From IMG/VR virus record IMGVR_UViG_3300044681_000510, positions 1-62,111 of that record: a stretch of DNA of 62,111 nt; one strand, written 5' to 3'. Below, in pieces: positions 4,640 through 42,400 of the stretch. Under the pieces are notes generated by a model. The model worked only from the letters and a program-made list of their open reading frames with translations, had not been told where the DNA came from and ran no database searches. The stretch's first letter is position 1. Each line of letters starts with the position of its first letter. Source of the stretch: a virus (taxonomy: Duplodnaviria; Caudoviricetes). The position numbers and the translations under genes were made by a program.

Positions 4640-5323
4640 TTATACTCCTCGCCAATAGCGATATCTATTTGGATCATAAGAATAGGGATTTCTAAACGCA
4701 GCTCCACGAACATTTGCATCCCCGGTTCTAAATATATTTCGTTTTTTATCATTAATATCAGCAGCTTTTCCCTTAAAGTTAAATATTTCTTCTTGATAAG
4801 CTAAGAATTGATCTGCTGCGGGATCTCCTTGAGTTAGGATTTGATAATGTCTTGCACTGGTTGTTAAAATTGCTTTTTGAGCTGGAGTATCAAGATGATC
4901 CCATTTAAGTTTTTTAATTACCTCAACATAGTAATCATTTGGCTCCCAAACATCAGTTTCATCTGTAAAATTATATAAAAAAATCGAGTTGGGTGTTCCT
5001 GTTCCATCGTTGTAAACTTTAGCAATAATTGGCTCGTTGTTTGAGTTAAAATGTAATGACATTAAATCAGCAGAAATAATACCCTCTTCATCCGCATCTG
5101 ATCCCACTTGAAAATATATTTTACCGTTTAAATCAGGGTTTAATTTTCTTATTATTTTATTATTAGCAAGACCTCTTAACTGAAAGTCTAAGCTAGCTTG
5201 TTCTAATATTGTTTCTGCAACGCTAGTATCAATACCAGAGTTACCTAATAGGTCGGCTACTGGAGACTCACCAGCAGCCAATAACATTTGATTAATTGCT
5301 TGTAGCTTGGTTATAAAGCCCAT
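4640..5323 (-). CDS. Tail tubular protein A / adaptor (T7 gp11-like)
   Basis: TKLQAINQMLLAAGESPV N-terminal motif; immediately after capsid gene. Confidence 0.9.
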   Translation of the reverse strand: MGFITKLQAINQMLLAAGESPVADLLGNSGIDTSVAETILEQASLDFQLRGLANNKIIRKLNPDLNGKIYFQVGSDADEEGIISADLMSLHFNSNNEPIIAKVYNDGTGTPNSIFLYNFTDETDVWEPNDYYVEVIKKLKWDHLDTPAQKAILTTSARHYQILTQGDPAADQFLAYQEEIFNFKGKAADINDKKRNIFRTGDANVRGAAFRNPYSYDPNRYRYWRGV

Positions 5324-5336
5324 ATAGCCTCCTTAG

Positions 5337-5375
5337 AAAAAAACCACCCGACTCCCACTTAAGGGAGCCGGGGGT
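5337..5375 (-). terminator. Intrinsic terminator after capsid gene (T-phi-like)
   Basis: ACCCCCGGCTCCC-TTAAGT-GGGAGTCGGGTGGT stem followed by a T run on the minus strand. Confidence 0.85.
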
Positions 5376-5445
5376 AGATATTAGATCACCTCCTGTCAAT
5401 CTTGTTTAACTAAATAAACGATATTAACAGTAAGATTAATCATTA

Positions 5446-6621
5446 TCAGGCAACTGCGTACTCGGTTTCCCAAGCATTGTAGTTAGCACCTAGAGCTGCA
5501 TCTAGTTCAACTCTTGTTGGTGCATCATCGGTGAATACACCATTGGTGTAACCAACTAGAGCCTGACATAGTTCTGGACGAAGAATACCAGTACCCTTCA
5601 TCATGCTAGCTACGGTAAACTGAGTATTTCGACGGACATCCTGTACGGTGTCAACCTTCATACCCATTAGTGATAGACCAGCAACTGCTTCTGGCTGGAA
5701 GATCATACCGTGTAGCTTAATTGTGCTTGCATTGATATTATACTTGCTGCTACCAATGTTAGCAGAAGAATAATCAGTTGTTGGCAAGTGATTGCTCTTG
5801 ATAATACGGCAACCCATATATTCAAGAGTATCATTTAGGCTATTCATACCCATAGCTAGAGGACCACCAAGTCTACCAGCTTCTTCGCCACCACCAAATA
5901 GTGGATACTTGACGAATGCGTTGGTTTCTCCTGTTGTTCTGGTAATACCAAGACTACGAATAGTCTGGAATACCTTTGGAGTGACTACGCAATAAACACT
6001 ATTAGTTGGGTAATCATTTTCTTGCATGAATACAAAGTACTCTTCAATAGCCTTAAGAATCTTAAGCGCAGCGTCTTCAGTTACATTAGAAGCAGCAGCT
6101 GCTGAAACTTCTACTGGAGGTGGAAAATTAAGTGCGCCGCGAGGATCGTTGGAGAGTGGATCTACTGCACAAGCAGCTAGAATAGATACTGCAATTTGAC
6201 GATCTCTGTTATTAGCGAGGGTTTGACCAGCCTGACGAGCTAGTTCGCTACGGTAATCCCATTGGGTTACTAGAGCGTCTACATTGTCAGTTTCAAAGTG
6301 AGCAGCCATTGGTCGCTTATCAAGATTTACCTTGAAGCTAGTACTGGTTGAGCTACCGCCACCAAGTTCGTCACCCGCATCCCATGCTGGCATAAGAGCA
6401 ATAGTTCCGGTAACTGGGAATTCCCATGAGAATCCACCAGTTAAGCTTTTAGTAGTAATTAGGTTTTCAAAAACATTGTACTGATCGTAAGCATGAATTA
6501 CTTCACCAGACCAAAGAGGTAGCCAAAGCTTGTTTGGATTAGAACCTGCGGGTGCATCGCCTGCTCCGGTACGAACGAGTGCAAAATCTGCTGCTGCAAT
6601 ATTATCACCTGTAAATGCCAT
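5446..6621 (-). CDS. Major capsid protein (T7 gp10-like)
   Basis: LWLPLWSGEV, WEFPVTG, DYRSELARQAGQTLA, YMGCRIIKSNHLP, GTGILRPE; between scaffold and tube A. Confidence 0.93.
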   Translation of the reverse strand: MAFTGDNIAAADFALVRTGAGDAPAGSNPNKLWLPLWSGEVIHAYDQYNVFENLITTKSLTGGFSWEFPVTGTIALMPAWDAGDELGGGSSTSTSFKVNLDKRPMAAHFETDNVDALVTQWDYRSELARQAGQTLANNRDRQIAVSILAACAVDPLSNDPRGALNFPPPVEVSAAAASNVTEDAALKILKAIEEYFVFMQENDYPTNSVYCVVTPKVFQTIRSLGITRTTGETNAFVKYPLFGGGEEAGRLGGPLAMGMNSLNDTLEYMGCRIIKSNHLPTTDYSSANIGSSKYNINASTIKLHGMIFQPEAVAGLSLMGMKVDTVQDVRRNTQFTVASMMKGTGILRPELCQALVGYTNGVFTDDAPTRVELDAALGANYNAWETEYAVA

Positions 6622-20404: not shown

Positions 20405-21447
20405 ACGATCTCCTGTGGAATTGTTTCTGGGCTATTAGAAAAATAGACACAACTTTCATCAACCCAAGTAGCATTATCAATCTGCGCTCTAATAAAGTCT
20501 TGCATTTCTTCAAGAGTATTGAATGTTACAGTATCACCGGGCATTCCATAGTAAAGTTTGAAGATACCGCATTCATCAAGAACATCGCCTTTATTAAGAA
20601 TAACTGTTGTAGTACCGCTCATATAAATAGCCTTTAAAAGTCTATTTAAATCTAGAAAATCAACCTTACGCTGGCGACCAGTAGTAGTGCCGTATTCCTT
20701 ACCTATAGCCCCAATCTTTGAGCGTTCAGGACAACTTAAGAAAGACTCAGGAAATCGTGGATCGTTTCCAGATCTAGTATCATACATCTTTGCAACACCG
20801 ACAACCTCTCCAATATCTCTAAAAGAAAAACCAAGAGAGCAAGCCGAATAAGGTAAAGTCTCTGAACTTGTTGTATACGGTGGATTACCTTGATTGATGT
20901 CTAGCCACATACCCTGAGCACCCTCACAAAGAAGTCTATCACTACCGCAGAATTCTCTATCTTCAGGCCATAGTAAATTCTCCATCTCAACAACCTTTAG
21001 AAAATTCTTTGCTAACGCAGACTTTCGTAACGCCTTATCTGAATAACAAGGAGCAATACCACAACCAGTAGTTCCTAGTTCTTTATGAAGATACATCTCA
21101 TCATAACGAATGTTTTCTGGTGTAATAAAACTAGCGTGTGGGTGAATCCAAAGTTTTTTCATTGGATTAAATCCAGCATTTTCTAGATATCTAATTTCTT
21201 TCTGAAGTTTAAAGTAATCAATAACACAATTAGGACCAATGATACATTCTTTATCGTGAAAAATACCACTAGGAATTTGGTGTGTCTTATATTTATTACC
21301 GTTTACATATACAGTATGACCTGCATTTGGTCCACCATTCCAACGGCATACATACTTGTAAGGAAACTTTTGACAATAACCAGATACAACCTTACCTTTA
21401 CCCTCATCCCCCCAAGCAAGACCAAATACAATATCAACTATTGCCAT
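20401..21447 (-). CDS. purA: Adenylosuccinate synthetase (short type)
   Basis: WGDEGKGK with catalytic Asp, GGPNAGHT, GTTGCGI, EGAQG, PYTTSS, EYGTTTGRQR, NKGD. Confidence 0.92.
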   Translation of the reverse strand: MAIVDIVFGLAWGDEGKGKVVSGYCQKFPYKYVCRWNGGPNAGHTVYVNGNKYKTHQIPSGIFHDKECIIGPNCVIDYFKLQKEIRYLENAGFNPMKKLWIHPHASFITPENIRYDEMYLHKELGTTGCGIAPCYSDKALRKSALAKNFLKVVEMENLLWPEDREFCGSDRLLCEGAQGMWLDINQGNPPYTTSSETLPYSACSLGFSFRDIGEVVGVAKMYDTRSGNDPRFPESFLSCPERSKIGAIGKEYGTTTGRQRKVDFLDLNRLLKAIYMSGTTTVILNKGDVLDECGIFKLYYGMPGDTVTFNTLEEMQDFIRAQIDNATWVDESCVYFSNSPETIPQEIV

Positions 21448-21448
21448 C

Positions 21449-23203
21449 TTAAACTCCTTGTGTTTGAGTTACATTATTAGGATCAAATACAACTTGACCA
21501 CCATCATCTATTGCAAAACCAACTTCCCTAAGTCTACCCGTTTTTCTATCGTAATACAATGCAGTAGCAATACCAGCCCTACCAGTAAGACGATTTTTAA
21601 GAACACGAATCATTGTAGTATTGGCAATAGTTTCATCAGGATTTTGACGATCACGCTCTAGAGCAATAACAGTATTTGGTACAGAAGATAGAGCACCAGA
21701 ACCACGAAGATCCTGTAGTGTAATTCTGTCACCTTCTTCATATGCTTTTTCTGTCTTCTTTAGCTGAGATACAATATCAATATGAACACCTGTACGAACA
21801 GCAATAGATCGTAGTTCCTTCATAAGTGTATCAATAATAATACGCTCTGAGTTACCACCATCAACATCTTTATCATGCATGCCGATAAGACCAGCAGCGG
21901 CAGCAGTAATATGGTCAAGAACAATAACATCAACCTTAAGACTAACGGCCATGTATTCCATGCGTGCTAGTAGGTTCTGCATTGCATTATTACCAAGATG
22001 ATCATAGATAAAGAAGTTAGTACCACTAAGCTTACGCTTTGCTCCTGCATACTCTTCATCAGAAAGATCGTCAATAAAGTCCATGTTGATTGGGTTCTTA
22101 CCAAGCTTATTACGAAGATCATTCATCATACGACAAGCACGAATAGCCCGTACTGGTTTATTTAGTATGAGACTAATCATATCATCCATTGTTTCTTGTG
22201 GAGATTCCTCAAGCATAATAGCACCAACTGATCTACCTTCTTCAAGATGGTGAAGAATTAGCTCACGAAGAATGGTAGACTTACCACTACCAGTACCACT
22301 AGCCCAAAGACTAATTTCACCTGATCTTTGACCAATAAGAAACTCGCTAAGGCTATCGAATGGGAATGGATAAACTCTTACATTAGCAATATCTTCTCCA
22401 TCATCAGCAATAGATGAAACATGTAAAATCTCATCTGGAGAATACATTTGTGCTTCCCATACAGCGGATACAACAGCTTTACCGTTGTTGTTCATTAAAC
22501 ATTCATTAGCATCTTTGAATGGAAGCTTCGCAATCTTACACTTACCGGGCGGTAGTATTTCAGCCGCTTGCTTAGTAGCAGTTCTGCCGGGTTCATCATT
22601 ATCGAAGCAAAGCACAATCTCATTGTAAGAGCAAAGGAATTCATAGTTATCCTTGATAGCCTTAACAGCAGATTGAGCACCATTAGGGATGGATACAACA
22701 GGCCAAGTGCCACCAAGTAGTTGATTAATTGTCATACAATCAATCTCACCCTCAGTTACAATAATACGCTTACCGCCAGTCTTCCAAAGATGCTGACCAA
22801 ATAGCTCTACATTCTTACTGTTACCCTTCCAGTAAAATTGCTTGTTTGGCCCTCGTAAGTGTTGTGCAACAAGTTCACCTGATCTATAATAGTTTGAGAT
22901 TTCTACATCCTTACCATTTACCTTGGCGGACTCATAGCCATACAAACGACAAGTCTTATCATCAATATTACGATGAGTAAGAGGGACTACAGTTCCTTTA
23001 ATTGGCTTAAAGTCTGTAACCTGAGTAAAAGAAGTTTCTTGTTCCATAGGTCTAGTTACTCCATCCTTTCCTTCATAGTATTGACAAGCAAAACAGTAAA
23101 AGTGATCTGTATATTCTACAAGATTGTCGCCCTTATGGTCGTTACCAGAAGCAGAACATCTTGGACACCTGCTACGCTTACCAGTAAATGTACTATTATT
23201 CAT
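21449..23203 (-). CDS. DNA primase-helicase (T7 gp4-like)
   Basis: Zn finger CPRC...CFAC, TEGEIDC, FDNDEPG TOPRIM, GTGSGKS, LDHI, DLRGSG, KNRLTG. Confidence 0.96.
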   Translation of the reverse strand: MNNSTFTGKRSRCPRCSASGNDHKGDNLVEYTDHFYCFACQYYEGKDGVTRPMEQETSFTQVTDFKPIKGTVVPLTHRNIDDKTCRLYGYESAKVNGKDVEISNYYRSGELVAQHLRGPNKQFYWKGNSKNVELFGQHLWKTGGKRIIVTEGEIDCMTINQLLGGTWPVVSIPNGAQSAVKAIKDNYEFLCSYNEIVLCFDNDEPGRTATKQAAEILPPGKCKIAKLPFKDANECLMNNNGKAVVSAVWEAQMYSPDEILHVSSIADDGEDIANVRVYPFPFDSLSEFLIGQRSGEISLWASGTGSGKSTILRELILHHLEEGRSVGAIMLEESPQETMDDMISLILNKPVRAIRACRMMNDLRNKLGKNPINMDFIDDLSDEEYAGAKRKLSGTNFFIYDHLGNNAMQNLLARMEYMAVSLKVDVIVLDHITAAAAGLIGMHDKDVDGGNSERIIIDTLMKELRSIAVRTGVHIDIVSQLKKTEKAYEEGDRITLQDLRGSGALSSVPNTVIALERDRQNPDETIANTTMIRVLKNRLTGRAGIATALYYDRKTGRLREVGFAIDDGGQVVFDPNNVTQTQGV

Positions 23204-27702: not shown

Positions 27703-28078
27703 TTGTAATTAACCTTTCAATTGATACAATCATTCCCCAAGGTATTTTATTGATTACGCCAACACAATCATTGGCTACTGTATCAACCAAAGCTATGTAT
27801 GATTTAGTTTCTTCTACAATAAAACCAATTGAAATAACCGTTGGTAATTCTCCATCAAGAGTTTTTTCTAAGTTTTTAATCGGATACCATCCACCATCTC
27901 CAAGTGTTTCAGCATCAAGCCAAATAACAACAACTGGATTAGTGGAAGAAATAATCTGCTTCAAGAACGGATGAAATGTTGAAGCAGCCGATTTCAGGCG
28001 TTCCCGGTAATTCAACACCGAGGACTTTTTCAACATCTTCTTTGAGTCGTTCAAGAAGGGGTTCTTTGTGCATTTCAT
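27623..28078 (-). CDS. Hypothetical protein (true start probably near 27964, overlapping RNAP end)
   Basis: VIWLDA...W...SIGF....IPWGMIVSIERL pattern of a common phage family; the 5' part of the ORF call lies inside RNAP. Confidence 0.55.
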   Translation of the reverse strand: MKCTKNPFLNDSKKMLKKSSVLNYRERLKSAASTFHPFLKQIISSTNPVVVIWLDAETLGDGGWYPIKNLEKTLDGELPTVISIGFIVEETKSYIALVDTVANDCVGVINKIPWGMIVSIERLITSGKKKKKKNTKGRKRRRYGGRSKKSS

Positions 28079-30434
28079 AAAACTCCTCTCTTGTATATTG
28101 CCTCATCATTGGAATATACGGTGCAGCACAACCATAAGAATCGTGAACAAAACTAAAATTAGTAAGACCAGCATTAATCATTCTATTTAGTGTCATCCAC
28201 ATATGAGATGCATCTAGACTGTGGATATAATTTGGACTAACAGCGAGATTAACTTGATCGTCGTCAATTTGGGTAGAATCAGTAGATCCAAAGTTTAACT
28301 CTTTCATGTTAAAGAGCTTTGCAATAGATCGTCTAGTTAAAATCTCATAATATTGATGGACAACTTTAAAACCACATGGAGTAGTCCATTCAAGATTTTT
28401 ACCCATATTGCTGGCAATATCTGCAATCTGCTTTAGCCATACCTTTCCTTTATTAGCGTTTGTTAAGGTATTCTTAAGGCACTTATCAATATATGTAGCC
28501 AGTTCCATTACTGCACCAGCTATTCTTTCTTTACCAACCCAATCTAAATGTCCCTCAGACTTACAATAACGACGGATACCATAGAAAGTTACTCCATAAG
28601 GATCTGTCATTACAGCTCTCTTGCATACTGATCTTGGAATATTGTGATTCCAGTGTTCAAGAAACTTATCCGCCCAAACCTTAGTGTCTGGGTCTGCGTT
28701 ATCATCCTTTACATCCTTTTCCATACTATTAGTCATGGAGTCTGCAACAAAGCCGTAAAGATCCTGTGGTATCTCAGACTTCACAAGATTAACCTTGTAA
28801 GCAAGGTCTGTATCTCTCATAACAGCAGCCCAATGTTGAACTCCGTTACACGACCCATCCATTTGAATAGGTAATTGTGTTAAACCATCCGTTCTGCACA
28901 ACTCAAAAATAGCTGCAAGACGCTGAAAACTTGGATTCTTTTTCTTTTTATCTGAAACCCAGAAATATCGCATTTCATAGGGATCTTTTGCAGTATCCTG
29001 AATAAGATCTAAGTTTTCATCAACCCATTTAATTCTATCTTCAAATGATTCCTTATCTTGGTCAAAGAGATTTGCCAAGTGGATTTTTAACCAATACCTA
29101 CCTTGTTCTGTTTGCTTGACTGGTTTTGCAAACATAATTAAACTACGATCAAAATCTGAACTTTGTGGAGATAATAAGTCACATGCCGTATAAGCACGAC
29201 CTCTAAAATCACATGTATAAGTGTGATAAAAGAATCCCCACTTGAGCAAATCTTTAGCAAGCTTAAGACGAACTAACATCCTACCACGGGAACGCTCTTC
29301 TTTATACCAACTACTGTAAGCCTCTTCTTTTCTCTGACACCACTTAGCCTTTTCTTCCTTAGCTCCACTTTCTGGGTAAGGTTCTCCAAAATCAAAAGCA
29401 TCAAAATTGTATGCTGGAAGATTAGCCTGTCTAGTGTTGTTAAGGAACATGTTTTCCATAACTTCATAAACAGACTTATTAATAGTCCACTCTGTATTCA
29501 TCAAGTTATTAAGACCATTAACAACCATTTCACTAGGGGTGGAGTTTTTCTGAACAACTGTTTCGTCCCAGAACACATCACGAAACTTCTGAACAACAGG
29601 CTTTCTAAGCCACGGCATAAGATTGCCCCCGCTAGAATTAACGGTATGCGGTACAGGAGGAACAATCATAGGACGATACAAAAAGCTAGCCCTTGAGACA
29701 AGATCATTGTGTCGATTGTGTAGTTCCATCAAGATTTCATCAGTAAAACTAACAACAACTCTTTCATACCAACGACTACCGATACGCTTTCTGTAGTTTT
29801 TGATAGAAATAATATTACTAATCTCAGCAATTCGAAGCATATGATGCCCAAAATCTTCCCTTTGCTTCCTAGTAAATTGCTTCTTATTAATGCAATTCAT
29901 TTTCTTAGCAAAAGCACGGCAACGCTTTACAGTCCAATTTTTCTGATAATGAGACTGCTTTAGCCAATCTTCTCTAAAATCTTTCTTTGCTGCTTGATAA
30001 GCAACAATATCAATAACCATATTAGAGATTTGGTGTGACATATGTTGGGCGGAAGGAAGGGGAACGGTGTGAATATCACCATCCTTACCATCCATCTTAC
30101 GGTCCCAAGTGTTAGAATTAAACCACTCTAACATCAAGCACCTAATAGTAATGTCGGCCATCTTACCAGCACCAACAGCAAATAGAGGATAAGCCCACTC
30201 AGGAGTCTTACGATTCTTGCTAACAAGATCAATCCATTCCTGATAGAACGGTGTCAAGTGAACAACACAAGAATCTAGAAGACCTTGTTCTGGATATCCC
30301 TCATCTGGGGATCTGTTGTATTCTTCCCAATATCGGTTGTTAGAAAGATTAAGCATCTCTTCTTCAAGAAGAGCCTGATAGTTCTTTCTATTTTCCTGAA
30401 CTTCTGGCTTAAGTAAATTCCATAACTCAGGCAT
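27939..30434 (-). CDS. Single-subunit DNA-directed RNA polymerase (T7 gp1-like)
   Basis: PMIVPP, DFRGRAY, DGSCNGVQH, KRAVMTDPYG, PNYIHSLDASH, VHDSY, C-terminal YFFH. Confidence 0.97.
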   Translation of the reverse strand: MPELWNLLKPEVQENRKNYQALLEEEMLNLSNNRYWEEYNRSPDEGYPEQGLLDSCVVHLTPFYQEWIDLVSKNRKTPEWAYPLFAVGAGKMADITIRCLMLEWFNSNTWDRKMDGKDGDIHTVPLPSAQHMSHQISNMVIDIVAYQAAKKDFREDWLKQSHYQKNWTVKRCRAFAKKMNCINKKQFTRKQREDFGHHMLRIAEISNIISIKNYRKRIGSRWYERVVVSFTDEILMELHNRHNDLVSRASFLYRPMIVPPVPHTVNSSGGNLMPWLRKPVVQKFRDVFWDETVVQKNSTPSEMVVNGLNNLMNTEWTINKSVYEVMENMFLNNTRQANLPAYNFDAFDFGEPYPESGAKEEKAKWCQRKEEAYSSWYKEERSRGRMLVRLKLAKDLLKWGFFYHTYTCDFRGRAYTACDLLSPQSSDFDRSLIMFAKPVKQTEQGRYWLKIHLANLFDQDKESFEDRIKWVDENLDLIQDTAKDPYEMRYFWVSDKKKKNPSFQRLAAIFELCRTDGLTQLPIQMDGSCNGVQHWAAVMRDTDLAYKVNLVKSEIPQDLYGFVADSMTNSMEKDVKDDNADPDTKVWADKFLEHWNHNIPRSVCKRAVMTDPYGVTFYGIRRYCKSEGHLDWVGKERIAGAVMELATYIDKCLKNTLTNANKGKVWLKQIADIASNMGKNLEWTTPCGFKVVHQYYEILTRRSIAKLFNMKELNFGSTDSTQIDDDQVNLAVSPNYIHSLDASHMWMTLNRMINAGLTNFSFVHDSYGCAAPYIPMMRQYTREEFYEMHKEPLLERLKEDVEKVLGVELPGTPEIGCFNISSVLEADYFFH

Positions 30435-36184: not shown

Positions 36185-36574
36185 TCATCCATTTACAGTC
36201 TCCCTTACAAAAGGATCAATACCAAGAGGAATCTTCTCACTTCCAATCCAGTAATCAGAAACCATACCGTTACGATAGGTGAGATACCACTCGTGATTCT
36301 TTTGATAAATGCTACAGTTAGTACCAAAGATACTAAGGATAGCATTCAACCGATCCTTTGTAGTTCTTGTTCTCCAACCACAATCACGAATCCAAAGAAC
36401 ATAATGTCCCTTGGCATAATCGTACTGAATAACAGCAATACGATTGTTGTGAAGAAGATACTCAACAAGGGGATATCCATTCTCATCCTTCCAAACACAA
36501 AGTTCTGAAGAACCACGCTTGAAAGACTTGAGATTACGAATCCCATCACGAATCTTACGATCAATCACTCTCAT
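36185..36574 (-). CDS. Hypothetical protein
   Basis: LHNNRIA...GWRTRTTKDRLNAIL...IYQKN.EWY pattern; AAGGA RBS. Confidence 0.7.
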   Translation of the reverse strand: MRVIDRKIRDGIRNLKSFKRGSSELCVWKDENGYPLVEYLLHNNRIAVIQYDYAKGHYVLWIRDCGWRTRTTKDRLNAILSIFGTNCSIYQKNHEWYLTYRNGMVSDYWIGSEKIPLGIDPFVRETVNG

Positions 36575-36788
36575 TGGAAACTTCCTTTATTGAAGGAGTG
36601 GAATCAATCCACCGCATATCACACCAACCAGAAACCAGATCAACAACACCATCATCAAAGAGTTTCTGCTTTGCCATAGCAATCAGAATGTTTGGATCAG
36701 ATTCCCTGTTAGTCATCGTAGTAACCCTAGTACTAACAGAAACTCCACAACCATCACCACAAGACCAAGAAACAATCCAAGTTTTCAT
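36561..36788 (-). CDS. Hypothetical protein
   Basis: AGGAG RBS; 75 aa. Confidence 0.6.
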   Translation of the reverse strand: MKTWIVSWSCGDGCGVSVSTRVTTMTNRESDPNILIAMAKQKLFDDGVVDLVSGWCDMRWIDSTPSIKEVSNESD

Positions 36789-36809
36789 TTGTTTCTCCTA
36801 AAGATGGAA

Positions 36810-37240
36810 AAGAACAGAACAGATTGAAACATGGGTATTGTTGTATATCTTGTGTATAGCACCAATAGTTACAAACTATCTACTCGCTATACCAAATAGA
36901 TAGCAAGTAACACAAAGCAATACCCATGTTCCAAACTATTCTGCAAGTGTATCGTAGGGTACTCTCCGAAGAGAATACCGTGGCGAACCACTTGCCTACC
37001 TTGATTCTGGACATATCTCGACACCCCTCTTTATCTCCTTTGTGTGGATGAGGAATCTACACAACATATGTGGTTATTTAGGCTACCACGCGAAATGCCT
37101 GAAACATTCCCATGATATTTCTACCATGAGAACGCGGGAGAGTACTGCCCTCCGAAGGATCAGTCTAGGACATACACAAGACATCCTAGAGGAATACCAA
37201 CAACAACAAGAAGAATTGAGATCAACTCAATCATTGTTTG
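36810..37240 (-). ncRNA. Structured non-coding block A
   Basis: Stems AACATGGGTATTG/CAATACCCATGTT, GCAAGTG/CACTTGC, TTCCCATG/CATGAGAA; no credible minus-strand ORF; strand inferred from transcription direction. Confidence 0.45.
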
Positions 37241-37254
37241 TTTCCTTTCTTGGA

Positions 37255-37476
37255 TTACCTAGCAACTCCCCACTTACCATTGGGAAGAAGCATGTCACAA
37301 TCAAACTTTGACCAACGCAAACCGCAGCACTCACAATGCTCGGTAGTAAACCAATCCTTCTTCTCAAGTTCAAGCCAAGCATGGTCAACAGATTGTGCCT
37401 GAACAACAAACTTATCAGGTCCAACAAACACACCACCACTATTGTTCTGATTGAAACGGTAAGTGTTCATGTTCAA
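37255..37476 (-). CDS. Hypothetical Cys-rich protein
   Basis: F.QNNSGG.F and CECCG.RW motifs. Confidence 0.7.
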   Translation of the reverse strand: MNMNTYRFNQNNSGGVFVGPDKFVVQAQSVDHAWLELEKKDWFTTEHCECCGLRWSKFDCDMLLPNGKWGVAR

Positions 37477-37502
37477 ACCTTTCCCGGCAATGCCGGATTA
37501 GA

Positions 37503-37539
37503 GGAAAGATATCCATAGGATATTTCACCTATGGATACC
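37503..37539. repeat. Hairpin repeat copy 1 (loop ATATTTCA; TGAAATAT on minus)
   Basis: TATCCATAGG-ATATTTCA-CCTATGGATA; shares GGAAAGATATC flank with copy 2. Confidence 0.8.
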
Positions 37540-37800
37540 CGATCTGATCCTATTATATTCTTCTAGTGGATCTGCTAGAGTATACTATGAACGGTATACA
37601 AGCGTTGATCTATTGTTGGTTTGGATTCTTTCCAAATGCTCCAACCGCATAAGGAAGAACCAATAGATCAGTAAATACCCCCACGCATACCCGTCGATAT
37701 GCATGGGACGCACTATGCCTAAATCCTATTTATACTCGCATAGTCGAGTAACCCTTGTTTTCTCTGCTTACTGAAATGGCGGGTCATTCCTACAGTTCCG

Positions 37801-37837
37801 GGAAAGATATCTATGGAATATTTCATCCGTAGATATC
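37801..37837. repeat. Hairpin repeat copy 2
   Basis: GATATCTATGGA-ATATTTCA-TCCGTAGATATC; compensatory stem changes relative to copy 1. Confidence 0.8.
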
Positions 37838-37843
37838 AGAAGA

Positions 37844-38074
37844 TCAGCGAATCACGATGATCTTATCTTTCGCATTCCACGAAACCGGAGCCATCTTGTC
37901 GATGGACTTGATAAGTCCAACGACAACATTACCATCCACAAGTTCACCATCATTCAACCCGAAACTAGGGGCCAGCGCATTCCGAACCATGCGAATGAAA
38001 GTAACGATTCCATGCCGATTGACAGACAGACGAACCCATTCCTTTCGCCAATCCACCTTCTTCGGATCAGTCAT
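37844..38074 (-). CDS. Hypothetical earliest-region protein
   Basis: GGAG RBS; GC-rich codon usage. Confidence 0.65.
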   Translation of the reverse strand: MTDPKKVDWRKEWVRLSVNRHGIVTFIRMVRNALAPSFGLNDGELVDGNVVVGLIKSIDKMAPVSWNAKDKIIVIR

Positions 38075-38149
38075 GTATGCTCCATTCTCCCATGAAAGGG
38101 ATAAACCCCGGTATTACTACCGGGGAGAATCCATGCCATTGGATGAGTA

Positions 38150-38419
38150 TCAGATTCCAAGAATCGCCGCAGCGTCAGCGATCTTCGCCGCATTTCGCTC
38201 CGCAGCCGAAACCACGGTCTTCGGAATCGCTTTGTCCACCTTCGCCTCCCACGCCATTTGGTTCGTGAGGATGCTGACACCGTACTTCTTCTCGATCACA
38301 CCCTTGAGAACCGTATAGTTACGCCGTCCACGATTCGACAGAACACCATGAGCAACCAACTTGGCGAACACCTCAAGGATGCAATCACCTTGCTCCCGCT
38401 CACTCATCTGATTCCACAT
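38150..38419 (-). CDS. Hypothetical first gene of the genome
   Basis: AAAGGA RBS; GC-rich codons; first ORF after the sigma70 promoter. Confidence 0.65.
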   Translation of the reverse strand: MWNQMSEREQGDCILEVFAKLVAHGVLSNRGRRNYTVLKGVIEKKYGVSILTNQMAWEAKVDKAIPKTVVSAAERNAAKIADAAAILGI

Positions 38420-38429
38420 TTCAGAATCC

Positions 38430-39085
38430 TTTGTCCATTGGACAATAAAGTTACCCTATGCTCTCGACCATCGAAAGCATGGGATTCGCTACCCTAGAAT
38501 CGAATATGCATTCCTCATTTATATTTAGTGGGAAGGTGCAGGCGTTCTACCGCTAGGGTAACGAATCCCTCCCGAACGGGTTGCCAAGGATTCCTAGAAA
38601 AGAGCAGGAATCCACCCATTCGGGAAGGATCGGAAATAGAACTATTTCGGCGATGCCAACGCATCACACAATGGAGAACCTTACAATTATTCATTCCATT
38701 GCTCGGTCCCGTCATCGGACCGAACCACGACCGCTAGAATGCCGCAAGGTAAACCCTTGCCGATTGTGACCATTCTACCCTTACGGGCTTGTGGTCACAT
38801 CCTAGGCTAATGCCGCACCGGACATTTCAGGATTCCGGCGGTCCGTTAGACCACGATTCTCGCATCGGATGGTTCCATCCAATCGTTCCGCCGTGCGTAC
38901 CTTCAGGGGCATCGTGCGGAGAGAATCGTGGGATGTCAAAGAATCCGAAGGTAGTAGCCGATTCCCGCCGATTCCGCAGCCCTTGCCGATCTACGACCGA
39001 TAACGCAGGGGCAGGGCGAGGGACTGCCCGCGAGGGGGGGCCACGGGGGACGCTTCAAGCGACCGAAGGGAGCGAGTCCCCTTAT
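38430..39085 (-). ncRNA. GC-rich structured leader (block C)
   Basis: Near-continuous hairpins; several C.A mismatches on plus become G.U pairs on minus. Confidence 0.55.
38911..38939 (-). promoter_or_regulatory. Host sigma70-type early promoter
   Basis: TTGACA-17 nt-CACGAT, pointing into the early genes. Confidence 0.6.
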
Positions 39086-39402
39086 AAATTTCTGACCCCT
39101 AAGTCGATTTCCTAAGCTCTCCCAGATGGACTTGAACCAACGACCCGAGAGTTAACAGCTCTCTGCTCTACCGACTGAGCTATAGGAGAATAAGTACCCC
39201 CGCAGATATCTGGGGATAACGCAGGGGATTGAATTATTCATGTTATATCGAAATCGACCGGGATGGGAACCTGTGTAGTGATATTTATGTATTGTATGCT
39301 AGGAATCCCCTTAGATCCCTTTGGGGAACTAAAGGTATAAATACAAATATTATTTAATCCTATAGAGTCCCCTTAAGGGTATCCTAAGGATACCCCTAAG
39401 GG
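39074..39402. repeat. Short-repeat/palindrome region, probable genome terminus
   Basis: Multiple CCTAAG/CCCTTA words; GAGTCCCCTTA at 39074 and 39365; 33-bp near-perfect palindrome 39370-39402. Confidence 0.55.
39117..39189 (-). tRNA. tRNA-Asn(GUU)
   Basis: TCTCCTA/TGGGAGA-G, anticodon arm GAGAG-CTGTTAA-CTCTC, T-loop TTCAAGT. Confidence 0.95.
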
Positions 39403-39405
39403 AAA

Positions 39406-39424
39406 TATCTATAGCTCCAACTAT
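39406..39424 (-). promoter_or_regulatory. Putative phage RNAP promoter (phiOR-like position)
   Basis: ATAGTTGGAGCTATAGATA, 16/19 match to the repeat; just after the last gene. Confidence 0.55.
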
Positions 39425-39429
39425 TTGTA

Positions 39430-42400
39430 TTATTGATTGGACATGTCTTCCAATAGGTTTGCCAAATCTGTCGAAACTCCGGTATTTGGGGTGGATCTTC
39501 CTTGATCTAGGGTCTTTCTTAGGGTTTCCCTAAGGAGTTCATCCTTGCGTTCCTTGGGCATTCCCCCCTGCATTTTACTATAGGTGTAATCTGACTTTTT
39601 GGTATATACATTCTTTTTCTTTTTAATTAGATTCATGTATCTACCCATAGCATCAGCTTCATTAATAATACCAGCTTCTACCAACAATCTTGCAGGAATT
39701 GCAATTGGGGATTTATTTAATAATGTATTATAACCAATTAATGGTAATTCCCCTGTTGCTGCTGCTATTTTGGCAGGATCTCCGCTTGGAATAGCATCGG
39801 TTACTAGATCCTTGAATCCGGTAAACATCTTGTATGGTGTATTCAAAGCAATGTTTAAACCGGGGTAAGAAACTGGAGTACCATAGGACTTTAGAGGACC
39901 ACCCATCAATTGTGAGACTCCGCCCAAGGATGAGGATAGAATCCCGTTAAAGGCTCCTAGAGCGGGTAGAGAATACATCATCCTAAATAGGTATGTTTCT
40001 GGGTTTCTCTGCATTTCCTTTTCAATATCTTCAACATCCCTACCCATTATCCATTCCTTTAGATATTCGGTAGCTGCTGTTAGACCTGAATAAAGAATTA
40101 GAGATCCGAGATAGGCTGAAGCTCCCATGCTTGCGTATCCGCCGATAACATTGTTTTGGAAGCTTTGTGACCAACCCAACAATGCCTTAGTAAGTCTACC
40201 AAGTGGTGTTCTAGATTCAAACCTTAGTTCTTTATTTAGACCCCTAGGTAGTGAGATAGCACCTCTGGTTGTTGTTAAGGTTTCTGCGGCATACATTAAA
40301 GATTCAAAAGCATCCATTCCCTGTGTACCGTCTACTCCATCAATAACCTGTTGTTTCATGTTTTCATGGAACAGTTCTTTGAGTTCTGCCCAATTAATTA
40401 AGCCTCTCTTGGAATATCTTGGTCCTAGTTGTTGGAATGCTTTTTTGAGAGCATTAATCTTTTCAATTGTATTTACACCATACTTATTCATAGCCATAGC
40501 AATATCCCAACGATCACCAAAACCAGATTTTCTAGCAATATCTTTAAATACCTTAACTAGTTCTGCTTCAGCTTTAGGATCTAAAGCAGCAGCTTCCTCT
40601 AGTCTCTTTAGAGTGGCGTTTGTGTTTGGATCAGCTAGTGCGGTAAAGAATCGTTCGGCTGCACCGTTGTTAATAACCTTGGCAATAGATTTTCCGTATA
40701 CTTGCATAGCTAGCTTTCTAGCATAGTATGTAGTATATCTTACAGAACCGATTTCAACCATTGCATTTCCAAAGACATCAAAACTATCGCTGATAAGACC
40801 AAAACGACTATCTTCTCTAGTTGCTGTAATTCGATCAAACCATCTAGAAATCTTTGGAACACCGTCCAAGTCAGAATTAATGATTCTATCCTGAAGATCA
40901 GAGCGAACAAGATCAATAAAGAATACACTATCTCTTAATTCATCTTGTAAAGCCTTGGATGTTGAGAATCGTTTATCACCAATAATAATTCTAAGACCAT
41001 CCCAAATATTTTTAATAGTCTGAATAGTACCTACGGTTGCTGGTCCTCTTATTAGATGTTGTAATGGTTCTGACAAACTGGTAATACCCCAGATTGGGGC
41101 ACTAGCTCCACGAACCATAGATAGACCAATTTCTGTAAACTCCATTCCTAAGGTTGTCTCACCGGATGATAGAGTACCTAATCTTCCTAGATAAAATAGA
41201 TATTCATTGGCAATTCTATCATAACCAATAAGCAAATCTTTAATTTGGTCTTCTGATGCACCCAATGCTCTTAGGTCTTGTTCATCAGCTCGTCTTACAA
41301 TATCTAAAAATTTATTAAATCTAATACCTTTTGTTCCTAGCATTCTATCTAGTTCTTTTTGAAGTAATAGATCAAATCCTCTAGATTTTAAGAAGTTAGA
41401 GTAAGCCTCAAGTGGATCGTTTCTAGTAATCTTAAGTAGTACATCGCTTTTTAGGAGTTCATCCCAAGTTAGTGGCTTTACAGCAATACCGTATTCAATT
41501 CGATTACGATCTCTTAGCAAAGTCATTGGGCTTAGTGGATTTCCTCTTCTTGAAGCAAGATGCTTGCTATATCTTCCCTGATAAAGCTTAGAATCTAGGT
41601 ATTCACTCATTATGGTGTACAGTGGTGATACTGGATTTCCGGGGAAGTTTGCTTTCCATTGTTTTCCAATATGATTAGTACTACCATCCAATACTTCATT
41701 ATATTTAGCCAAATCTGGTAGTGATAGGTCTGCCTTTTTTCTTGGAATTAAACAAACAACCAATTCACCAGTATTAGAATCCTTATAAACAAAGTGTTTC
41801 TTACTTGCTTCTCCAGCCATTTGAGCAAAGGTTCTTGCATCACTTCCGGGGGCATATCTAGCAACTTCTAGATTTCGTAGTGTTTGCTGATCAAAGTTTG
41901 CTTCTGTTAAGAAGTGTATTCTTCTTCCTTCTACTTCTCTACCCTTATCTAGAATACCTGCTTGTGGATCATCGCTATTATCGAATAGCCAACCCATAGA
42001 AAGCATAATATCTGTAGATAGGTCATCTGAATTAAGTAGTGTTTCTCGTCTTACCCCAACTAGAGCCTTAATGATTTGATCTCTGTTTTGTGGTAGTACT
42101 CTTTCACCAATAAAGGTAATTGGGAAGTATTCTGTTGGGTTTACTGGATTTCCTTGCTTATCCTTTAATTCAATCCATCCAGTTTCGTTTTCAAGATCTA
42201 GGATCTTTTTATTTAAACCAACAACAGCACCGTATAGTTTTTGAGCGTAGTCAAAAGTTTTGTTTACTAGTTCTGGTCTTGGAGATGGAATTGCTATAGC
42301 AACAGCAGCTTCAATTATATTTCTATTTAAAGTGCTTTTTGAACCAAGAGCTTTCATAACTTCAATAAATACATTTTCAACAATCTTTTCACTTGGAACT

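What the first reader, a model, noticed from the sequence alone, without database searches (positions are those of the whole stretch)
38430..39085. Large, almost wholly base-paired leader RNA candidate (block C)
Seen: a continuous series of stems, e.g. ATCCCTCCCGAACGGGT/ACCCATTCGGGAAGGAT enclosing GGATTCCT/AGGAATCC, ATGCTCTCGA/TCGAAAGCAT, TCGGTCC/GGACCGA, GCAAGG/CCTTGC, TGTGACCA/TGGTCACA, CCACGATTCTC/GAGAATCGTGG. Mismatches in the longest stems are G.U on the minus strand. The promoter at 38911-38939 would give about 480 nt of untranslated RNA before the first ORF. I cannot match it to tmRNA, RNase P or an intron. Inference: an undescribed ncRNA made first in infection (antiterminator, defence decoy or aid to transcription-driven DNA entry).
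Basis: partly seen in the sequence, partly recalled or inferred. Interest (0 to 1): 0.8.

Follow-up and report, generated by a model that had tools for sequence, protein, structure and literature searches.

The report
Structured RNA leader of phage early genes
A roughly 520-700-base non-coding stretch between a phage tRNA gene and the first early gene of a freshwater T7-like phage folds into a chain of RNA helices that relatives keep through compensating mutations, so it is a real, undescribed structured RNA, most likely a leader that controls processing and translation of the first early gene.

Summary
The stems are real and the fold is far beyond chance. Core 38400-38945, minus strand: z -10.6. 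Two of its 150-nt windows rank 2nd and 3rd of 827 across the genome.

One full-length relative, L039 (72% identical), keeps the helices. 30 of 154 consensus pairs changed on both sides and none is broken; slid controls give 1-2. The minus-strand fold is 53 kcal/mol better than the plus-strand fold and holds 41 G.U cells against 7. So it is an RNA in gene sense. It is non-coding and matches no Rfam family.

It is not one uniform, wholly paired RNA:
- About 67% is paired in the MFE.
- The first ~170 nt after tRNA-Asn are not unusually structured.
- The region is modular. A 3' five-branch module whose closing helix pairs with the Shine-Dalgarno of the first gene (p89) occurs in all 5 p89-bearing sequences. 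Domain I occurs only in the window and L039. Other relatives carry an ORF instead.

The proposed promoter (38911-38939) is not supported: its spacer is the 5' arm of a covarying helix.

Best reading: a cis-acting structured leader for processing, stability or translation control, a much more structured counterpart of the T7 early leader. An autonomous tRNA-linked large ncRNA is not excluded. Transcription was not shown.

The parts
39116..39189 (-). tRNA-Asn (GUU), directly upstream of the leader on the same strand
   Evidence: Rfam tRNA 63.4 bits; ARAGORN. The same tRNA follows the giant gene in every relative that reaches that far.
39077..39115 (-). Post-tRNA segment conserved in all relatives (AAATCGRCTTAGGGGTCA...), then a small GGGG/CCCC hairpin
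   Evidence: Window 39450->39077 is 79-87% identical in the 9 loci that reach it. The exact 18-mer occurs in 26 IMG/VR stretches.
38946..39076 (-). C-rich 5' segment of the leader, partly shared with L007 and L039, not unusually structured
   Evidence: 150-nt windows 38862-39011 and 38937-39086 have z +0.41 and +0.50. About 72% identical to L007 over the first ~165 nt.
38935..38943 (-).
   Evidence: Identical in the window, L039 and L007. No acceptable -10.
38851..38931 (-). Domain I: three-way junction, an 11-bp outer helix enclosing a 10-bp and an 8-bp hairpin
   Evidence: Helices 4-6: 7 of 11 outer pairs changed on both sides between the window and L039, none broken. Covariance model R1 finds it only in the window (111 bits) and L039 (106 bits) among 27 sources.
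38724..38819 (-). Domain II: two stacked helices enclosing a hairpin with a GNRA loop (GUAA in the window, GAAA in L039) and a second hairpin (GCAAGG/CCTTGC)
   Evidence: Helices 7-11: 10 pairs changed on both sides, none broken.
38703..38723 (-). Hairpin H12 (TCGGTCC/GGACCGA)
   Evidence: Helix 12: 7 pairs, 1 compensatory.
38668..38702 (-). Hairpin H13 (CAATGGA.../...TCCATTG) with a conserved loop
   Evidence: Helix 13: 12 pairs, 5 changed on both sides. A hairpin with different stem letters stands at the same place in L025 and L027.
38626..38641 (-). 5' strand of the closing helix of module III; contains the anti-Shine-Dalgarno GAUCCU
   Evidence: Pairs with 38412-38430 (helix 14). The inner 6 bp are paired in 5 of 5 sequences and are invariant. 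They appear in 5 of 5 independent MFE folds.
38570..38625 (-). S1: long hairpin of 12 + 8 bp with a one-sided 6-nt internal loop (UUGGCA); the apical loop carries a 63-nt insertion in L025 and L027
   Evidence: Helices 2-3: 100% paired in 5 sequences, 2 pairs compensatory. Insertion seen.
38481..38569 (-). S2: 17-bp stem with a variable apical part (about 55 nt in the window, about 33 in L007, a short 4-nt loop in L039/L025/L027)
   Evidence: Helix 5: 100% paired, 2 pairs compensatory.
38458..38480 (-). S3: 10-bp hairpin (ATGCTTTCGA/TCGAGAGCAT)
   Evidence: Helix 7: 100% paired, 3 pairs compensatory.
38431..38445 (-). S5: small hairpin just before the ribosome-binding site
   Evidence: Present as GCCC/GGGC in the relatives. 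MAFFT mis-registers it, so scores it poorly.
38412..38430 (-). Shine-Dalgarno AGGA (38427-38430) and the AUG of p89 (38417-38419), forming the 3' strand of the closing helix
38150..38419 (-). p89, the first early gene (89 aa, no known family), always preceded by module III
   Evidence: Homologues at 43-47% identity in L039, L007, L025 and L027. No Pfam or PHROG family.

Best explanation
The stretch is the non-coding, highly structured 5' leader of the early operon of a T7-like phage. It is read on the minus strand, downstream of and probably together with tRNA-Asn.

It is built of modules:
- a weakly structured C-rich start;
- two three-way-junction domains (I and II);
- two hairpins;
- a 3' five-branch module.

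In the 3' module the closing helix pairs GAUCCU with the Shine-Dalgarno AGGAUU of the first early gene, p89, and partly pairs the start codon.

Shown here: the helices are under selection as RNA, and the region is non-coding.

Inferred: the leader holds the ribosome-binding site closed until something opens it. The long S1 hairpin, about 20 bp with a one-sided internal loop, is the likely site of a double-strand-specific cut like those RNase III makes in T7 early RNA. The stacked helices may also protect the early transcript from decay.
For: - Fold statistics: z -10.6 for the core. Its windows rank 2nd and 3rd of 827 genome windows.
- Covariation with L039: 154 consensus pairs, 30 changed on both sides, 0 broken, against 1-2 in six slid controls and 15.1 +/- 2.7 in shuffles.
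- A structure taken from the window alone still holds in L039: of 187 pairs, 142 kept (25 changed on both sides), 21 broken, 24 at gaps.
- Strand: consensus energy -199.1 kcal/mol on the minus strand against -146.5 on the plus strand. G.U cells are 41 of 308 against 7 of 262 (my count).
- Non-coding: 5-13 stops in every frame in three leaders, and no 3-base periodicity of mismatches (49/45/39). No protein-level remnant of relatives' ORFs. No Pfam hit with E below 0.1 for 7 ORFs inside it.
- 3' module in 5 sequences: S1, S2 and S3 are 100% paired, and 10 pairs changed on both sides against 0-2 in slid controls.
- The Shine-Dalgarno is paired with GAUCCU in 5 of 5 independent MFE folds.
- The module always precedes a p89 homologue.
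- T7 itself has 924 nt before its first gene and a 427-nt leader from promoter A1. That leader folds at z -3.7.
- RNase III cuts five signals in the T7 early precursor, and internal loops direct single-strand cuts that leave stabilising 3' ends (PMC3867540, passages read).
Against: - No transcription data.
- No start site was found. The only sigma-70-like site is weak and conflicts with Domain I.
- The Shine-Dalgarno/anti-Shine-Dalgarno helix is invariant, so it has no covariation support. Its outer part, over the AUG, is paired in only 80.8% of cells.
- In L007 the mean unpaired probability over the Shine-Dalgarno-to-AUG stretch is 0.51.
- Domains I and II are found only in the window and L039. 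Other relatives replace them with other sequence or with an ORF, so the upstream two thirds are dispensable for the phage type.
- RNase III cleavage is an analogy, not a result.
- Covariation rests on 2 sequences for the upstream part and on 5 (4 clearly distinct) for the 3' module. That is too few for a formal test of the R-scape type.
Confidence: 0.55

Rival explanations
1. It is an autonomous, stable, large non-coding RNA of about 500-700 nt. It would be released from the tRNA-Asn transcript and act in trans, for example as a sponge, decoy, scaffold or multimer. That would make it a new class in the niche of GOLLD and ROOL, which lie next to tRNAs in phages.
For: - It lies directly after a tRNA.
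- It has multi-domain architecture with two three-way junctions and a GNRA loop (GUAA/GAAA) kept between the window and L039.
- It is far more structured than the T7 leader: z -10.6 against -3.7.
- GOLLD and ROOL are phage RNAs 'often near tRNA islands' (bioRxiv 10.1101/2024.12.08.627333, passages read).
Against: - No Rfam match at all.
- The helices are nearly all local; the long-range pairs of the MFE are the ones broken in L039.
- The 3' end is physically paired with the ribosome-binding site of the next gene.
- Distribution is narrow and the modules are exchangeable.
Confidence: 0.2
2. The hairpins act at the DNA level on the leading end of the genome. Possible forms are single-strand hairpins or cruciforms used as promoters, an origin or packaging signals, or a cluster of GANTC methylation or restriction sites.
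For:
- GANTC is enriched: 13 in 696 nt against 3.45 per kb genome-wide and 2.7 expected from base composition.
Against: - Strong strand asymmetry: 41 G.U cells on the minus strand would be A.C mismatches on the other, and the energy gap is 53 kcal/mol.
- Many GANTC sites are lost in L039 while the helices are kept: L039 has 5 in 620 nt.
- The phage has its own T7-type RNA polymerase gene.
- The giant protein shows no sequence match to any solved structure, so nothing here points to a virion polymerase that uses DNA hairpins.
Confidence: 0.08
3. It is a loose collection of independent intergenic hairpins, such as terminators, processing sites or mobile hairpin repeats. These would have accumulated by recombination in a fast-changing early region, with no function as a whole.
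For: - The whole early region 36300-39540 is rich in strongly folding windows.
- So are the non-homologous early regions of other clusters: L012 z -11.5, L014 z -15.4, L023 z -9.4.
- A 36-nt hairpin (37504-37539) is repeated in relatives.
- The leaders are mosaics.
Against: - Two three-way junctions and a five-branch module closed on the ribosome-binding site are more than single hairpins.
- The order of all helices is kept over about 520 nt between the window and L039.
Confidence: 0.12
4. It is a chance effect of a GC-rich patch, or a decayed or unrecognised protein-coding gene.
For: - GC is 0.52 in 38001-39000 against about 0.37 in the flanks.
- Group A relatives do carry an ORF of about 93 aa at this place.
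Against: - Dinucleotide-preserving shuffles are beaten by 7-10 sd.
- There are 25-30 compensatory pairs.
- Every frame has stops and there is no codon periodicity.
- tblastn with all relatives' ORFs finds only the nucleotide-conserved hairpin, on both strands.
Confidence: 0.02

Closest known systems
T7 early leader and its RNase III processing signals
   Same: - A T7-type phage: single-subunit RNA polymerase gene, all genes on one strand.
- A long non-coding stretch before the first early gene. T7 has 924 nt, 427 nt from promoter A1, and that leader also folds beyond chance (z -3.7).
- S1 has the shape described for such signals, two stacked helices with a one-sided internal loop (PMC3867540, passages read; the exact shape of the T7 sites is recalled, not checked).
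   Different: - Much longer and more structured (z -10.6).
- Preceded by a tRNA.
- Organised in junction domains.
- No sequence similarity: blastn against 50,697 phage records matched only the tRNA.
- Cleavage was not tested.
   Same: A structured leader just upstream of the first early gene, whose folding limits access to the ribosome-binding site and where processing could relieve it.
   Different: - No nut-like boxes were identified.
- The phage type is different.
- The leader is much larger.
- No evidence for antitermination.
GOLLD and ROOL large phage RNAs
   Same: Large, highly structured, phage-encoded, and next to tRNA genes.
   Different: - No match to either covariance model or to any other Rfam family.
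- No pseudoknots or long-range helices are supported.
- The 3' end pairs with a ribosome-binding site.
- Known from only 5 distinct sequences.
Shine-Dalgarno-sequestering leaders (riboswitch expression platforms, RNA thermometers)
   Same: An anti-Shine-Dalgarno strand pairs with the Shine-Dalgarno in every member.
   Different: - No ligand-binding aptamer family matches.
- The T-box family was considered because of the neighbouring tRNA and a GGGUGG-like word, but nothing matched at E up to 10.

Membership tests
Any Rfam family (GOLLD, ROOL, OLE, raiA, HEARO, T-box, tmRNA, RNase P, group I/II introns, self-cleaving ribozymes) | Match to the family's covariance model | tested here: not met
   - cmscan of the whole window at gathering scores: only 6 tRNAs and a Pistol ribozyme at 37673-37749.
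- 38000-39500 at E up to 10: nothing within 38420-39115 better than E 6.9.
- 7 relatives' loci: tRNAs and Pistol only.
Conserved structured RNA (generic) | Thermodynamic stability beyond shuffled sequence | tested here: met
   - z -6.8 for the 696 nt.
- z -10.6 for the core.
- Its windows rank 2nd and 3rd of 827.
Conserved structured RNA (generic) | Compensatory base changes in relatives | tested here: met
   - 30 of 154 pairs changed on both sides, 0 broken, slid controls 1-2.
- 25 when the structure comes from the window alone.
- 10 pairs in the 3' module over 5 sequences.
- Too few sequences for a formal significance test.
Conserved structured RNA (generic) | Transcribed | not testable with these tools
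   No RNA run is listed as holding the stretch.
T7-type RNase III processing signal | Hairpin of about two helical turns with an internal loop | tested here: met
   S1 has 12 + 8 bp with a 6-nt one-sided loop and is 100% paired in 5 sequences.
T7-type RNase III processing signal | Cleaved by RNase III | not testable with these tools
   Needs an enzyme assay or mapping of RNA ends.
   - -35 TTGACA is kept in 3 of 3 sequences.
- -10 is CACGAT in the window, CACGCT in L039 and absent in L007.
- The consensus scan did not report the site.
- The spacer is the 5' arm of a covarying helix.
Shine-Dalgarno-sequestering leader | Anti-Shine-Dalgarno/Shine-Dalgarno helix present in all members | tested here: inconclusive
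   It is predicted in 5 of 5 MFE folds, and the inner 6 bp are paired in 5 of 5 sequences. The helix is invariant, so there is no covariation, and the effect on translation is untested.
Protein-coding gene | Open frame kept in relatives, with codon periodicity | tested here: not met

The most novel reading that the evidence does not exclude
The stretch, cut from a tRNA-Asn co-transcript, is a free-standing large structured RNA of a new class. It would be a freshwater-phage counterpart of GOLLD and ROOL, with junction domains and GNRA loops that build a defined three-dimensional particle. That particle would act in trans early in infection, for example by capturing a host RNA-binding protein, a nuclease or the ribosome. 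Its pairing with the p89 ribosome-binding site would be a secondary feature.
Probability: 0.18. Interest if true: 0.85.

Novelty: new variant of a known kind. Interest (0 to 1): 0.55.

Why it matters
Early leaders of T7-type phages are the first RNA made in the cell. In T7 they carry the RNase III sites that set early mRNA stability.

Here an uncultured freshwater clade has a leader that is several times more structured than T7's. It is organised in junction domains and kept by compensatory change. It is joined to a tRNA on one side and to the ribosome-binding site of an unknown first gene on the other.

This gives three things:
- a defined, testable RNA element for how a phage times its very first protein;
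- a new candidate for curated RNA family collections;
- a case in which long structured leaders are swapped as modules between related phages.

If it proved to be a free RNA, it would add a new member to the small set of large phage RNAs of unknown function.

Tried and rejected
**Family and similarity searches**
- Rfam at permissive thresholds gave nothing.
- GenBank phages: blastn matched only the tRNA, and megablast of 20 kb matched only a tRNA-sized piece.

**Route to relatives**
- Pattern searches with p89 and with the C-terminal 499 aa of the giant protein found no relatives in IMG/VR.
- Relatives came through a profile of the giant protein and through DNA motifs. Two further motif scans added nothing new.

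**Ideas rejected**
- T-box. Raised by the tRNA next door and a GGGUGG word; no model match.
- Integrase or attP. No PF00589 match in the record.
- Giant protein as a virion RNA polymerase using DNA hairpin promoters. No Pfam or PHROG family and no PDB sequence match with a 14-sequence profile.
- p89 function. No family. ESM Atlas gave no usable hit. The AlphaFold model is a four-helix protein (pLDDT 77.8) with no Foldseek PDB match at E <= 0.001 (best E 4.5).
- Decayed gene: rejected.
- The long-range pairs of the MFE (38954-38948 with 38414-38421, 38839-38830 with 38733-38743) are broken in L039, so I dropped them.

**Sequencing runs (no weight given)**
- No RNA holder is listed for the stretch.
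- I laid four runs as contigs.
- X5 and X6, probably one data set filed twice, hold a roughly 95%-identical relative over 38047-38623. One contig joins 38638 to 38862 with the letters between unknown. I read this as a divergent or missing middle, not as proof of deletion.
- X20 is labelled metatranscriptomic but flagged 'probably DNA'. It holds one 173-nt contig identical to 38565-38624 and 38631-38743, with a strand switch at the base of S1.

**Technical failures**
- One script timed out with no output. I repeated it with 150-nt windows.

Full report
**Setting**

The window is a whole IMG/VR virus record of 62,111 bp, estimated 92% complete. All long ORFs lie on the minus strand. It encodes a T7-type single-subunit RNA polymerase at 27939-30434 (PF00940, E 1.4e-91) and no integrase.

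Reading the minus strand, the order is:
- a 3,515-aa ORF (49977->39430);
- a 240-nt intergenic stretch;
- tRNA-Asn (39189->39116);
- the stretch in question (39115->38420);
- an 89-aa ORF, 'p89' (38419->38150), and a 76-aa ORF;
- a Pistol ribozyme (37749->37673, 60 bits).

GC is 0.52 in 38001-39000 against about 0.37 around it.

**Observation**

| Stretch | Strand | MFE (kcal/mol) | z | Shuffles |
|---|---|---|---|---|
| 696 nt | minus | -296.1 | -6.82 | 20 |
| 696 nt | plus | -272.7 | -6.70 | 20 |
| Core 38400-38945 | minus | -236.8 | -10.62 | 100 |

I scanned the whole record in 150-nt windows: 827 windows on the minus strand, 15 dinucleotide shuffles each. Mean z is -0.63, sd 1.38.
- Windows 38487-38636 (z -6.38) and 38562-38711 (z -6.12) rank 2nd and 3rd.
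- Window 38787-38936 has z -4.91.
- Windows 38862-39011 and 38937-39086 have z +0.41 and +0.50.

So the strong structure lies in about 38420-38940, not in the first 170 nt after the tRNA. The MFE pairs about 67% of the bases (187 pairs in 561 nt), which is not 'almost all'.

**Relatives**

I therefore reached relatives another way:
- through a 14-sequence alignment of the giant protein, which gave 3 IMG/VR and 7 metagenome loci;
- through the 18-nt word that follows the tRNA (26 IMG/VR stretches);
- through a 17-nt word of hairpin S1 (10 stretches, of which 3 are true relatives: L025, L027 and the new L039).

All loci that reach that far have tRNA-Asn right after the giant gene. Window 39450->39077 is 79-87% identical in them, although the giant protein is only 43-59% identical.

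Beyond that point the sequences fall into 13 clusters among the 26 stretches of at least 700 nt. Group A (L003, L004, L009, L010, L026) and L006 carry an ORF of about 93 aa with its own ribosome-binding site where the window has its leader.

The window's cluster holds L007 (= L011), L025 and L027. L039 came in, after the clustering, and aligns with the window over the whole leader at 72%.

**Covariation**

RNAalifold on the window and L039, minus strand, gives 154 pairs. Of these, 30 changed on both sides and none is broken. Counted independently:

| Measure | Observed | Shuffled | Six slid controls |
|---|---|---|---|
| Pairs changed on both sides | 30 | 15.1 +/- 2.7 (0 of 500 reach it) | 1-2 |
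| Cells paired | 100% | not applicable | 37-48% |

That structure was derived from both sequences, so I also took the MFE of the window alone and mapped it on L039. Of 187 pairs:
- 142 are kept (103 unchanged, 14 changed on one side, 25 on both);
- 21 are broken, mostly long-range pairs and small mis-registered hairpins;
- 24 fall on gaps.

The best case is the outer helix of Domain I: CCACGATTCTC/GAGAATCGTGG in the window against CCGTTCTCATG/CATGAGAACGG in L039. Seven of its 11 aligned pairs changed on both sides.

**Strand**

The same pipeline on the plus strand gives -146.5 kcal/mol, 131 pairs and 24 compensatory pairs. The minus strand gives -199.1 kcal/mol. From the pair tables I count 41 G.U cells of 308 on the minus strand and 7 of 262 on the plus strand.

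**Not coding**

- The leaders of the window, L039 and L007 have 5-13 stops in every frame.
- Mismatches between the window and L039 show no 3-base period (49/45/39).
- ORFs inside the stretch differ between relatives and have no Pfam match with E below 0.1.
- tblastn with all relatives' ORFs finds only the hairpin that is conserved at nucleotide level, on both strands.

**Architecture (minus strand)**

- 39115-39077: the segment conserved in all relatives.
- 39076-38946: C-rich and weakly structured.
- 38943-38935: conserved TCTTTGACA.
- Domain I, 38931-38851: a three-way junction.
- Domain II, 38819-38724: stacked helices enclosing a hairpin with a GNRA loop (GUAA in the window, GAAA in L039) and a second hairpin.
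- Hairpins H12 (38723-38703) and H13 (38702-38668).
- Two small hairpins that the consensus does not keep.
- Module III, 38641-38412.

Module III is a multibranch loop holding S1 (12 + 8 bp with a one-sided UUGGCA loop), S2, S3 and small hairpins. It is closed by GAUCCU pairing with AGGAUU, which is the Shine-Dalgarno of p89. The helix extends, less regularly, over the AUG.

In five sequences folded independently, the same architecture and the same Shine-Dalgarno pairing appear 5 of 5 times. With the window's structure laid on the five-sequence alignment:
- S1, S2 and S3 are 100% paired.
- 10 pairs changed on both sides, against 0-2 in slid controls.
- The inner six closing pairs are invariant, so they neither gain nor lose support.
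- The outer closing pairs are 80.8% paired.

Peripheral parts vary freely. There is a 63-nt insertion in the S1 loop of L025 and L027. The S2 tip ranges from a 4-nt loop to about 55 nt.

A covariance model of Domain I finds it only in the window and L039 among 27 sources totalling 361,580 bases. The leaders are therefore mosaics. Module III goes with p89, while the upstream domains are exchangeable.

TTGACA at 38940-38935 is conserved. The -10 is poor and not conserved, and the scan does not list the site. More telling, the 5' arm of the covarying Domain I helix (38931-38921) lies in its spacer. A transcript from that promoter would lack the arm.

The RNA must therefore start upstream, most simply together with tRNA-Asn. 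I did not test this further.

**Comparison**

T7 has 924 nt before its first gene and promoters A1-A3 at 498, 626 and 750. Its A1 leader folds at z -3.69. RNase III cuts five signals in the T7 early precursor, and internal loops direct single-strand cuts that leave stabilising 3' hairpins (PMC3867540, passages read).

The present leader has the same position and an S1 hairpin of that shape. It is much more structured, is organised in junctions, and is joined to a tRNA.

GOLLD and ROOL share the tRNA neighbourhood (bioRxiv 10.1101/2024.12.08.627333, passages read). They share no model match with this stretch.

Strongly folding windows also occur in the non-homologous early regions of other clusters: L012 z -11.5, L014 z -15.4, L023 z -9.4. 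Heavy RNA structure seems to be a habit of this clade's early regions.

**Verdict**

This is a real, conserved, non-coding structured RNA region of a kind not yet described in detail. The best reading is a modular cis-acting leader of the early operon, whose 3' module gates the first gene.

Function, transcript ends and processing remain inferred. The covariation rests on few sequences.

The scan has not found this element on other DNA.

Noticed in passing
window 37673-37749 (-); L003 9835-9911; L006 9646-9714: A Pistol self-cleaving ribozyme (60 bits; gathering score 34.5) sits in the early region about 100 nt after the second early gene. It is kept in two relatives (57.3 and 40.8 bits). It may serve as a processing site in the early transcript.
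   Followed up: partly
window 39077-39450: The intergenic stretch plus tRNA-Asn is 79-87% identical in relatives whose neighbouring giant protein is only 43-59% identical. It holds a 25-nt near-palindrome (39361-39411) and CCCTTAGGGG-type words. It is possibly the genome end or a strong control region.
   Followed up: partly
window 38420-39115: GANTC sites, all of them GAATC or GATTC but one, are enriched: 13 in 696 nt against 3.45 per kb in the record and 2.7 expected from base composition. Enrichment is weaker in L039 (8.1 per kb) and L007 (12 per kb). Several sites are lost in L039 while the helices stay.
   Followed up: partly
window 37504-37539; several copies in L003, L004, L006: A 36-nt hairpin element is repeated between early genes in the window and in relatives, at 84-100% identity.
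   Followed up: no
L004 about 21240-21530; likewise L003, L009, L010, L026, L006: Group A relatives carry an ORF of about 93 aa with its own ribosome-binding site where the window has leader domains. A word, CCTGCTCTTTTCTAGGA, that forms the S1 loop in the window lies there directly before the start codon of the next gene.
   Followed up: partly
window 5337-5486: This is the most strongly folding 150-nt window of the whole record (z -7.26, minus strand). It lies between the ORFs 4640-5323 and 5446-6621.
   Followed up: no
window 38075-38149: The spacer between p89 and the next gene is almost identical in L007, L025, L027 and L039. It holds the hairpin CCCCGGTAGTAATACCGGGG followed by TTTAT, which looks like a terminator or attenuator.
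   Followed up: no
run X20 on window 38565-38743: One small library is labelled metatranscriptomic but flagged 'probably DNA'. Its only contig on the 2-kb stretch is a 173-nt piece identical to the leader, with a strand switch at the base of hairpin S1.
   Followed up: no
L012, L014/L036, L023 (first 1.2 kb after the tRNA): Other clusters have non-homologous early regions with extreme local folding (z -11.5, -15.4, -9.4 in 150-nt windows).
   Followed up: no
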